DNA from: Escherichia coli O127:H6 str. E2348/69
GTDB lineage: Bacteria > Pseudomonadota > Gammaproteobacteria > Enterobacterales > Enterobacteriaceae
Direction: 5' to 3' (one strand)
Assembly (NCBI RefSeq): GCF_000026545.1
Contig: NC_011601.1
DNA: 64,000 bases
Part shown: positions 61,360 to 64,000 of the stretch, one piece after another
Layout: each line of letters begins with the position of its first letter
How positions within the stretch are numbered: position 1 is the first letter of the stretch
Position numbers: made by a program

Positions 61360-64000
61360 TGAGTTATTTCTAAAACGAGGAAAGAAAAGATATTAACTGA
61401 ACTTAATTTATAAAATTAAGTTCAGTTGCATAGATAGATCCTGTAAAGGCAGATATTCTGCGTAATGTACGACGCTAAAATTTATAAATGATTCAAACGC
61501 TCATTTAGCGTTTCAATAATATAAGTATTTACAGAGACTTGTTGCTGCGCAGCCGCATTATTAAGGCGTTCACTCAGCGATTCTGGATAGCGTAATGTAA
61601 AGGTCTTAATCTTTTCTGTACGCGCATACGGCTCAATACCCGCAGCTTTACAATCCTCAAGATACTCTCGCAGGGAAAGCTCCCCTTCTTTTTGCAGCCC
61701 CTGAATGCTGTCAGAGACAAAATCACAATAACCTGACAAGCCCAGGAATTTGCCACGAAATGCATTCAGTTCTGGCACGTAAGTGATAACAGCAGGTTGC
61801 CCGGCAATCTCCATAGAGTTTGGCGTCTTCAGTTTGATCATGGTTTTACCCCTATACTTAGTAACCAGTCACGCACGCTTTCTACAGCGCCTTTATCGGT
61901 ATCTGGCGACGGATGAGGCCGATGGAAACACGCAACGCTCATATTTAGTATGAACTTACAACGCGAACCTCTTCCTTCCTTAATTTCTCCGCCTAATGCT
62001 TTAACCAGTGACTCTATATCAGACCACTTAATCCCTTGAGGAACAGGAGATTTAAATATTTGATCCAATGTATTTTTTTGTTTCTTCCGCAAAGCCTGTA
62101 CCTGGGTTCTCATGGCATGTCCTTATGACTTCACTTTATGACATCAATAGTATGACATCACAATATGAAGTCAAGTTTCCCTTCCTTACGCCATTGTCCC
62201 AATCGTCTTCCTGAATCGCAGCAGTGCGATGGTGAAAAACGCGCCGCCAATTGCCATCAGCGTCAGGAACTGCGGCCAGACGATTTCGAATCCGGCACCA
62301 CGGTAGAGAATGGCCTGCGCGAGGCTAACAAAGTGTGTCGTCGGCATGGTCAGCATAATGTCCTGCACCATCTGCGGCATACTTTCGCGCGGCGTGGAAC
62401 CACCGGAAAGCATTTGCAGCGGCAGCAGCACCAGAATCACCAGCAGCCCCAGTTGCGGCATTGAACGCGCTATCGTCCCCATAAAAATGCCGATTGACGT
62501 GGTGGCAAACAGACTGAGCGCCACGCCCAGCATAAACAGCGGGATCGAGCCTTCTATCGGTACGCCCAGCACGCCTTTCACCATCAGCACCAGCGATAAT
62601 CCCGATACCACCAGCACCACCAGCCCCATCGACCAGACCTTTGCCATCATGATCTCAAACGGCGTTATCGGCATCACCAGTAAGTGTTCCACCGTGCCGT
62701 GTTCACGCTCGCGGATCAGTGCCGATCCGGTCAACACAATCGCCAGCATGGTAATGTTGTTGATGATCGCCATCACCCCGCCAAACCACGCGGGATCGAG
62801 GTTCGGGTTAAAGCGCATCCGGGTTTCCAGCGATACCAACGGTTCGCTGTTATCACGGTAACGCGCGACAAAGCTGTTCACTTCACCGTTGATAATATTC
62901 TGGATATAACCGTTGCCAGTGAATGCCTGGCTCATGCGCGTGGCATCGACGTTCACCTGAATATCCGGCTGGCGTCCGGCGAGGACATCACGCTGAAAAT
63001 TAGGCGGAATATTTATCGCGAAGGTATAACGTCCGGCGTCCAGTCCGGCATCCATCTCATCGGCGGTGATCATCTCCGGTGGCAAAAACCACGGGCGATA
63101 GAAGCTGTTAACGATCCGGTTCGACAACTGCGATTGATCCATATCGGCTATGGCGATCGGCGCGAGGTTCAACGATCCTGGCGTAACGGTCGCTGACGAA
63201 TACACCGACACCGTAAACGAGAAGACAATCAGCGTCAGCATCGCTTTATCACCGAGCAGACTGCGCAACTCTTTGATACCCAGATTAAAAATATTGCGTA
63301 AATGGCGCATCATCCCTCCTGTTTTTTCAGCAGCAGGATGCTTAAGCCCATCACCAGCGGTATGGCTATCAGCAACGGGATAAAAAGTTGCCACAAATCA
63401 GTCAGATCCAGCGCTTTCGAGAACGTTCCGCGGGCGATAGTCAGAAAATGACTGGTGGGATAAACCTCGCCGATCCAACGTCCTGGACCTTCCAGCGAAG
63501 CTACCGGATCGATCATCCCGGAAAACTGTGTCGCCGGGATCAACGTGATAATTGCCGTACCGAAAATGGCGGCAATCTGGCTTTTCATAAAGGTGGAGAT
63601 CAGCAGCCCCATTCCGGTGGCGATGATGATATACAGCAGCGCCGCCAGGGTGAGAGTCAGGAAACTGCCTTTATGCGGTACGCCAAACACAAACACCGAC
63701 AGGGCGCAGAGCAGGAAAAAGTTCAGCATCCCCAGCGCGATGTATGGCAGCTGTTTGCCAAGTAAAAATTCGCTACGGGTGGTGGGGGTCACGTAAAGGT
63801 TGATAATCGACCCTAGCTCTTTTTCCCGCACCACGCTAAGGGCGCTTAGCATTGACGGGATCATCATCAGCAGAAGCGGGATCACCGCCGGAACAATCGC
63901 CGGCAGGCTTTTTACGTCCGGGTTATAGCGATAGCGCGTCTCAATATTCATCAGCCCGCTTTGGCTGGCGGGTGTGGACTGTCGGCTCGCCACATCCTGT

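What the first reader, a model, noticed from the sequence alone, without database searches (positions are those of the whole stretch)
61482..62113. HicA/HicB-like toxin-antitoxin pair occupies the nikR-yhhJ junction
Two overlapping small genes (91 aa with a HicA-like GS-R...HRPHP core, then 119 aa with a ribbon-helix-helix-like C-terminus) sit where K-12 carries rhsB-yhhH-yhhI by my recollection. The toxin-first order and 4-bp overlap fit hicAB-type modules. Such modules are often associated with phage defence or stress persistence, and this one could mark an ancestral or alternative state of an Rhs insertion hotspot.
Basis: partly seen in the sequence, partly recalled or inferred. Interest (0 to 1): 0.6.

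Follow-up and report, generated by a model that had tools for sequence, protein, structure and literature searches.

The report
Annotated hicAB toxin-antitoxin pair, atypical toxin
Between nikR and yhhJ this E. coli strain carries an intact two-gene HicA/HicB toxin-antitoxin operon that public annotation already names and 38% of complete E. coli genomes share; the one unusual point is that its toxin belongs to a large branch in which the histidine needed for RNA cutting in all studied HicA toxins is replaced by arginine.

Summary
Two minus-strand genes, 91 aa (62113..61838) and 119 aa (61841..61482), overlap by ATGA. They fill the nikR-yhhJ gap, where K-12 has rhsB-yhhH-yrhC-yhhI.

- Pfam matches HicA_toxin (3.7e-9) and HicB (3.5e-15).
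- RefSeq already annotates the pair as HicA/HicB in E2348/69 (100% identical).
- 2075 of 5426 complete E. coli genomes carry it.

Citrobacter has the same yhhJ-hicA-hicB-nikR order, so the module looks ancestral and the K-12 Rhs island a replacement.

What I add:
- The promoter carries four TGAnnTCA boxes over the -35 and -10 hexamers. The boxes recur upstream of orthologues in unrelated contexts, so they are a likely HicB operator.
- Orthologues sit in the gpA-gpQ defence hotspot of P2-like prophages.
- E. coli holds many independently broken hicA alleles beside intact hicB.
- The canonical catalytic His is Arg51 in 142 of 147 subfamily representatives. A subfamily-specific His64 lies opposite it.

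No experiment on this module was found. Verdict: an ordinary, already annotated TA locus with an uncharacterised active-site variant. Interest is low to moderate.

The parts
61838..62113 (-). hicA-like toxin gene, 91 aa. It has an N-terminal two-helix extension (residues 1-28) followed by a dsRBD alpha-beta-beta-beta-alpha core (30-86). GSR occupies 49-51 and FHRPHP 63-68.
61482..61841 (-). hicB-like antitoxin gene, 119 aa. The N-terminal beta-beta-beta-beta-alpha domain (9-67) is HicB-type with a partial RNase H-like fold. The C-terminal ribbon-helix-helix spans about 79-118.
61838..61841 (-). ATGA overlap of the hicA stop and the hicB start, which suggests translational coupling
   Evidence: Read directly from the sequence.
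62147..62174 (-). Candidate sigma-70 promoter of hicAB: -35 TTGACT (62174-62169), 16-nt spacer, -10 TACTAT (62152-62147)
   Evidence: Consensus scan, 9 of 12 matches. It lies in the 72-bp gap between the yhhJ stop and the hicA ATG. A 14-bp deletion removes the -10 hexamer in the E. coli W-type allele.
62126..62173 (-). Candidate HicB operator: four 8-bp boxes TGACTTCA / TGATGTCA / TGATGTCA / TGAAGTCA. Centres are 13, 14 and 13 bp apart and form an imperfect 21-nt inverted repeat that covers the -35, the -10 and the start region.
   Evidence: Repeat finder I3 and D1. This is the only cluster of two or more TGAnnTCA sites in the 64 kb window. TGACTTCA/TGAAGTCA boxes recur at about -60, -32 and -19 upstream of orthologous hicA in Citrobacter, Serratia and Enterobacter P2 prophages, where the flanks are unrelated.
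61395..61427 (-). Intrinsic-terminator-like hairpin downstream of hicB: perfect 15-bp stem, 3-nt loop, then a T-rich tail on the minus strand
   Evidence: Terminator scan. RNA fold gives -16 kcal/mol, z = -5.1 against shuffles. It is present in E. coli W and absent from K-12 and O157:H7, where the segment is replaced.
61369..62185 (.). The variable cassette, 817 bp, bounded by the nikR and yhhJ stop codons. K-12 has a 6.7-kb rhsB-yhhH-yrhC-yhhI segment in its place.
   Evidence: BLAST breakpoints, alignments and the K-12 annotation.

Best explanation
This is an intact, self-contained type II toxin-antitoxin operon of the HicAB kind. In Gerdes' scheme it is class 4: hicA first, and HicB with a C-terminal ribbon-helix-helix. 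Transcription starts at a sigma-70 promoter in the 72-bp gap after yhhJ and ends at a hairpin terminator before nikR. The two genes are probably translationally coupled through the ATGA overlap. HicB is inferred to do two jobs, as in solved HicAB complexes. Its N-terminal HicB-fold domain covers the RNA-binding face of HicA. Its RHH dimer binds the four TGAnnTCA boxes over the -35 and -10 hexamers to repress the operon. Free HicA is inferred to arrest growth by binding and most likely cleaving RNA through its dsRBD fold. Its active site is non-canonical: the essential His at the start of beta-2 is Arg51, and a subfamily-specific His64 at the end of beta-3 is its cross-strand neighbour. The module is an old resident of the nikR-yhhJ junction, shared with Citrobacter. 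In K-12-type strains an Rhs island has replaced it, and in many E. coli lineages mutations in hicA have disabled it. Its most plausible role is that of a selfish or defensive addiction module, because the same subfamily travels as cargo in the P2 prophage defence hotspot, on plasmids and in phages. Shown here: the genes, family and fold assignment, synteny, operator conservation and the residue substitution. Inferred: toxicity, RNase activity, neutralisation, autorepression and any role in defence.
For: Family and fold. RefSeq annotation and prevalence (2075 of 5426 genomes). The two genes stay paired in every context examined, always with hicB immediately downstream and overlapping. Purifying selection. 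Promoter, operator and terminator. Operator boxes are conserved upstream of orthologues despite unrelated flanks, and both the repeat and the RHH strand differ in the distant Azospirillum homologue. Recurrent independent hicA-disrupting alleles beside intact hicB fit a gene whose product is harmful. The W-type allele has TAA at codon 2 plus a 14-bp promoter deletion and occurs in 787 genomes, and there are several frameshift forms. Mobile contexts: the P2 gpA-gpQ hotspot (with the hotspot defined in PMC9122126), phages and plasmids. Arg51 occurs in 142 of 147 representatives, His64 in 144 of 147, and the subfamily holds about 1005 clusters at E<=1e-10. The beta-2 (51-56) and beta-3 (59-64) hairpin register pairs residue 51 with 64.
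Confidence: 0.7

Rival explanations
1. HicA here is catalytically dead. The pair would be a domesticated or degenerating remnant, for example an RNA-binding protein plus an RHH regulator, or a HicB repressor with a harmless partner, and not a working toxin-antitoxin system.
For: The essential catalytic His is replaced by Arg51 (essentiality). There are no NCBIfam or PADLOC hits. Many E. coli strains tolerate broken hicA alleles.
Against: Arg51, His64, His67 and the whole GSR...FHRPHPSPDTDKG block are nearly invariant across about 1000 clusters from many phyla, which indicates a selected function and not decay. The strict partnership with HicB persists on phages, plasmids and prophage cargo sites. 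Repeated loss-of-function in hicA with hicB retained is what one expects of a toxic gene, not a harmless one.
Confidence: 0.15
2. The primary function is abortive-infection anti-phage defence: phage infection frees HicA from HicB and the infected cell stops growing. This overlaps the best explanation; it differs in the biological role it claims.
For: Orthologues occupy the cos-proximal gpA-gpQ hotspot of P2-like prophages in Enterobacter and Serratia, a locus shown to hold anti-phage systems (PMC9122126). The subfamily also occurs in Burkholderia and Ralstonia phages. HicA domains have been proposed, and for one unrelated 472-aa protein validated, as defensive (PMC10865869; PMC13092281).
Against: PADLOC has no hit. 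The junction and HicA are absent from the E. coli defence-island survey text and supplements. In this window the module sits between housekeeping operons with no neighbouring defence genes. The validated HicA-domain system is a different architecture.
Confidence: 0.3
3. The two ORFs are chance reading frames or mis-annotated, with no protein products.
For: None beyond their small size.
Against: Hundreds of homologues preserve length and motifs, dN is low against saturated dS, both have significant Pfam hits and both give confident AF2 models.
Confidence: 0.01

Closest known systems
Characterised RHH-type HicAB systems: Yersinia pestis HicA3B3 (PDB 4P78), Burkholderia pseudomallei HicAB (6G26), Streptococcus pneumoniae HicBA (5YRZ)
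   Different: Sequence similarity is too low for phmmer to detect. HicA carries a conserved N-terminal extension of about 28 residues. The catalytic His (His28, His24 and His36 in those three toxins) is Arg51 here, and a new conserved His64 appears. HicB is shorter, at 119 aa against about 135-150.
E. coli K-12 HicAB (yncN/ydcQ; PDB 6HPB)
   Different: K-12 HicB uses a helix-turn-helix DNA-binding domain, not an RHH. K-12 HicA is 58 aa with His23 and is only 17% identical. The two systems sit at different chromosomal loci, and the K-12 system has a described two-promoter, Sxy/CRP-S regulation for which there is no evidence here.
Cargo of the P2-like prophage gpA-gpQ hotspot (old/tin locus; Rousset et al. 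2022, PMC9122126)
   Same: Close orthologues (76% HicA identity) of this module sit at exactly that position in Enterobacter and Serratia prophages.
   Different: The copy in the window is not in a prophage. It lies between core operons, and HicAB is not among the systems tested in that paper (0 mentions).

Membership tests
HicA toxin family (Pfam PF07927) | Significant match to the HicA_toxin profile | tested here: met
   E=3.7e-9, residues 30-80, model positions 1-52 of 58. Homologues carry precomputed PF07927.
HicA toxin family (Pfam PF07927) | dsRBD alpha-beta-beta-beta-alpha fold | tested here: met
HicA toxin family (Pfam PF07927) | Conserved Gly-Ser-His in the beta1-beta2 turn, with His as the catalytic residue | tested here: not met
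   Gly49 and Ser50 are present, but the His position is Arg51. It aligns to the His of 'RGSH' in PDB 9svk. It is Arg in 142 of 147 subfamily representatives and His in 1. Essentiality of this His in characterised HicAs.
HicA toxin family (Pfam PF07927) | Encoded next to a hicB antitoxin gene | tested here: met
   hicB lies immediately downstream with a 4-bp overlap. The same holds in all seven other contexts examined.
HicA toxin family (Pfam PF07927) | Growth arrest on expression, and RNase activity | not testable with these tools
   Only indirect evidence: recurrent disruption of hicA with hicB intact.
HicB antitoxin family (Pfam PF05534 plus the HicB N-terminal fold) | Significant match to the HicB profile | tested here: met
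   E=3.5e-15, residues 60-112.
HicB antitoxin family (Pfam PF05534 plus the HicB N-terminal fold) | N-terminal partial RNase H-like domain | tested here: met
HicB antitoxin family (Pfam PF05534 plus the HicB N-terminal fold) | [quoted passage not shown] | tested here: met
HicB antitoxin family (Pfam PF05534 plus the HicB N-terminal fold) | Binds operators in its own promoter and neutralises HicA | not testable with these tools
   A candidate operator was found and is conserved in orthologues. Binding and neutralisation were not tested.
Known anti-phage defence systems (PADLOC-DB v2) | Match to a defence-system protein model | tested here: not met
   0 families for either protein at E<=1.

The most novel reading that the evidence does not exclude
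The GSR-type HicA clade is about 1000 clusters at 50% identity and spans Enterobacterales, rhizobia, Ralstonia and Burkholderia phages, Deinococcus and other plasmids. It may be a functional toxin family with a rewired active site, in which catalysis moved from the beta-2 His to the cross-strand His64, assisted by Arg51. Alternatively the clade may act by a non-hydrolytic, RNA-binding mechanism. In either case the conserved 28-residue N-terminal extension may confer a new target or trigger specificity that P2-like prophages use in defence.
Probability: 0.3. Interest if true: 0.5.

Novelty: new variant of a known kind. Interest (0 to 1): 0.3.

Why it matters
As a locus it matters little. It is a common, already annotated chromosomal TA module, and its presence or absence mainly documents how the nikR-yhhJ junction is swapped among hicAB alone, hicAB plus a sugar-PTS island, and an Rhs island.

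The more useful point is for HicA biology. All mechanistic work rests on a single catalytic His, yet a large and well conserved branch of the family lacks it and keeps a different His next to an invariant Arg. A toxicity test with R51 and H64 mutants would show whether annotation pipelines label a functionally distinct group as 'HicA family toxin'. It would also show whether the dsRBD-fold RNase can work with an alternative catalytic arrangement.

The conserved TGACTTCA operator and the P2-hotspot orthologues give ready handles for experiments on regulation and on defence.

Tried and rejected
- NCBIfam and PADLOC scans of both proteins gave no hits.
- phmmer of HicA against PDB sequences gave nothing. 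A profile search gave only one marginal HicA hit, 9svk at E 0.09.
- I searched the literature for this module by protein accession, locus tag and neighbouring gene names, and found nothing specific.
- The O157:H7 persistence paper on hicAB cites the K-12 system, and I could not tie it to this locus.
- The ExPEC PPECC42 hicAB biofilm study (Hou et al. 2023, Curr Microbiol) is not in the library. Which hicAB it concerns is unresolved.
- H. influenzae ToxTA is unrelated.
- The HicA-domain defence system validated in DefensePredictor is a different 472-aa protein.
- The E. coli defence-island survey mentions neither the junction nor HicA.
- I looked for a hicAB remnant in K-12 at either junction and found none.

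Full report
**1. Observation**

The window is 100% identical over this region to E. coli E2348/69 (EPEC O127:H6). On the minus strand there are two ORFs: 62113..61838 (91 aa) and 61841..61482 (119 aa). The stop of the first and the start of the second share the tetranucleotide ATGA. An AAGGA Shine-Dalgarno sequence lies 8 nt before the first ATG.

The pair fills the gap between nikR, which ends at 61362 on the plus strand, and yhhJ, whose stop is at 62186 on the minus strand. Homology to K-12 stops 6 bp after the nikR stop codon and resumes exactly at the yhhJ stop codon. No hicAB remnant is left in K-12.

**2. Family assignment**

- **Sequence profiles.** Pfam gives HicA_toxin (PF07927, E=3.7e-9, residues 30-80) for the 91-aa protein. 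It gives HicB (PF05534, E=3.5e-15, residues 60-112) for the 119-aa protein, with weak Arc, CopG and FitA ribbon-helix-helix matches. NCBIfam and PADLOC give nothing. Single-sequence searches of PDB sequences also give nothing significant.

In Gerdes' classification of HicA contexts this is class 4: hicAB with an RHH-type HicB (PMC10865869).

**3. Distribution and history of the junction**

The 823-bp cassette is found in 2075 of 5426 complete E. coli genomes, always on the chromosome. In 1491 of them nikR, hicBA and yhhJ are contiguous as in the window. In O157:H7 a GntR, PTS, kinase and aldolase island of about 5.8 kb sits between nikR and hicB, and hicAB stays adjacent to yhhJ.

Citrobacter has the identical order rbbA-yhhJ-hicA-hicB-nikR-nikEDCB. 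Another enterobacterial lineage has hicAB next to nikR with a different gene on the other side. So the module has been linked to the 3' end of nikR since before these genera diverged. The hicAB state is the likely ancestral one, and the K-12 Rhs island is a replacement bounded by the two stop codons.

Between E. coli and Citrobacter, hicA and hicB have dN of 0.085 and 0.133 with saturated synonymous sites. The flanking yhhJ and nikR have dS of about 0.8-1.0. The module is therefore under purifying selection but more diverged than its flanks. Some allelic exchange cannot be excluded.

**4. Regulatory anatomy**

The 72-bp gap upstream of hicA contains a sigma-70-like promoter: TTGACT, 16 nt, TACTAT. 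It also contains four 8-bp boxes (TGACTTCA, TGATGTCA, TGATGTCA, TGAAGTCA) spaced 13, 14 and 13 bp apart. Together they form an imperfect inverted repeat over the -35, the -10 and the start region. This is the only place in the 64 kb window with clustered TGAnnTCA sites.

The same TGACTTCA/TGAAGTCA boxes recur at about -60, -32 and -19 upstream of orthologous hicA genes in Citrobacter, two Serratia species and an Enterobacter prophage. The surrounding sequence there is unrelated. A distant Azospirillum homologue has a different repeat (GCGCTATCG) and a different RHH beta-strand. This co-variation is what one expects if HicB reads these boxes, so I infer autorepression by HicB.

Downstream of hicB there is a perfect 15-bp hairpin followed by a T-rich tail (61427-61395). 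It is strongly more stable than shuffled sequence (-16 kcal/mol, z = -5.1).

**5. The unusual feature**

In every HicA studied, a His at the start of beta-2, preceded by Gly-Ser, is essential. These are Y. pestis His28, B. pseudomallei His24, S. pneumoniae His36, N. gonorrhoeae His24 and the conserved His23 of E. coli HicA (PMC6159526, PMC11594946, PMC12297915).

Here the motif is Gly49-Ser50-Arg51. The profile alignment to the HicA structure 9svk places this Arg opposite the His of 'RGSH'. This is not a strain-specific lesion. A profile search of 1.84 billion representative proteins finds 1005 clusters at E<=1e-10. Among the 147 best, position 51 is Arg in 142 and His in one. His64 is present in 144 of 147 and His67 in 143 of 147.

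His67 corresponds to the 'P-x-H' His of canonical HicAs, and its gonococcal equivalent (His40) is dispensable. His64 is subfamily-specific: the two canonical HicAs aligned here have Thr, or Pro/Met, at that position. In the model, beta-2 (51-56) and beta-3 (59-64) form a tight hairpin, so residues 51 and 64 are cross-strand neighbours. This is inferred from the register and not measured.

The subfamily also shares a conserved N-terminal extension (T15, L16, F20, P23). I found no paper that describes this variant or tests any member, although the searched library is incomplete.

**6. Is it a working toxin?**

Only indirect evidence is available. The pairing with hicB is invariant across chromosomal, prophage, phage and plasmid contexts.

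E. coli populations carry many independent hicA-disrupting alleles while hicB stays intact.
- The E. coli W-type allele has TAA at codon 2 plus a 14-bp deletion that removes the -10 hexamer and one operator box. It occurs at 99% identity or more in 787 genomes.
- Several frameshifted or truncated forms exist, including a 55-aa form seen on 588 contigs.

The same pattern is described for H. influenzae hicA. It fits a harmful gene product. The window's copy is intact in promoter, operator and both genes.

**7. Role**

In Enterobacter and Serratia proteamaculans, orthologues (76% HicA identity) lie between gpA and the portal/Ogr genes of P2-like prophages. This is the cos-proximal hotspot that Rousset et al. 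showed to be a reservoir of anti-phage systems (PMC9122126). More distant homologues (about 50% identity) are in Burkholderia phage ST79 and many Ralstonia phages and on 231 plasmid records.

This supports a mobile addiction or defence lifestyle for the subfamily. It is guilt by association only. PADLOC has no model for it. The one experimentally validated HicA-domain defence protein I could find is a different 472-aa architecture.

**8. Verdict**

That includes the suggestion that the module marks the ancestral state of a junction later occupied by an Rhs element.

The locus is ordinary and already annotated. The only point a specialist might not expect is that this large HicA branch lacks the canonical catalytic His. 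I file it within the HicA/HicB superfamily by profile, fold and gene context. Because one defining feature of characterised HicA RNases is tested and not met, I call it a variant and not a canonical member. I leave its biochemical mechanism as an inference: RNA cleavage through a rewired Arg51/His64 site is the most likely reading, and an inactive or binding-only protein is the main rival. Interest is 0.3.

Noticed in passing
L003:4690-4810 (E. coli W), equivalent to window 62100-62186: A widespread E. coli allele (787 of 5426 complete genomes at >=99% identity) has a 14-bp deletion that removes the hicA -10 hexamer and one operator box, plus a TAA stop at hicA codon 2. PGAP still calls a 76-aa 'HicA family toxin' from a downstream non-ATG start. 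The first ~250 nt of hicA are markedly diverged from E2348/69 and the rest is identical, which suggests a recombination mosaic.
   Followed up: partly
L002:6351-11960 (O157:H7 strain 1130), inserted at the equivalent of window 61361-61472: O157:H7 carries a seven-gene GntR, PTS IIA/IIB/IIC, FGGY kinase, HPr and class II aldolase island between nikR and hicB. It replaces the hairpin terminator segment. The junction therefore has at least three states: hicAB alone, PTS island plus hicAB, and Rhs island.
   Followed up: partly
L010:3498-5087, L011:436-2025, L012:3237-4934: Close orthologues of this hicAB sit in the gpA-gpQ (old/tin) cargo hotspot of P2-like prophages in Enterobacter and Serratia proteamaculans. 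In Serratia they lie next to a putative D12-class methyltransferase.
   Followed up: partly
P0110, P0068, P0072, P0075, P0077, P0045, P0009, P0036, P0066 (E. coli hicA variants): There are at least nine different truncated, frameshifted, chimeric or internally deleted HicA forms in E. coli. One is a 55-aa form that breaks exactly at the GSR motif and is seen on 588 contigs. The cognate HicB cluster remains full length (P0121, 672 members).
   Followed up: partly
window 62186-63394: The mechanical ORF list extends yhhJ to a GTG at 63394 (402 aa), overlapping rbbA. RefSeq and K-12 use the 374-aa form that starts at MRHLRN (63310).
   Followed up: no
L013:3880-4003 and L013:3501-3941: The Azospirillum MAG homologue has its own upstream repeat (TAGCGC...GCGCTATCG, two copies 36 bp apart). 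It sits directly after a resolvase gene and near a phage portal gene, so this is another mobile context.
   Followed up: no
P0053, P0059, P0061, P0079 (names given by sources): Several members of this HicA subfamily are mis-named 'hexulose-6-phosphate synthase' in Pectobacterium, Leminorella and E. coli records. One is named 'uracil DNA glycosylase' in a JGI record (P0098). These are evidently propagated annotation errors.
   Followed up: no
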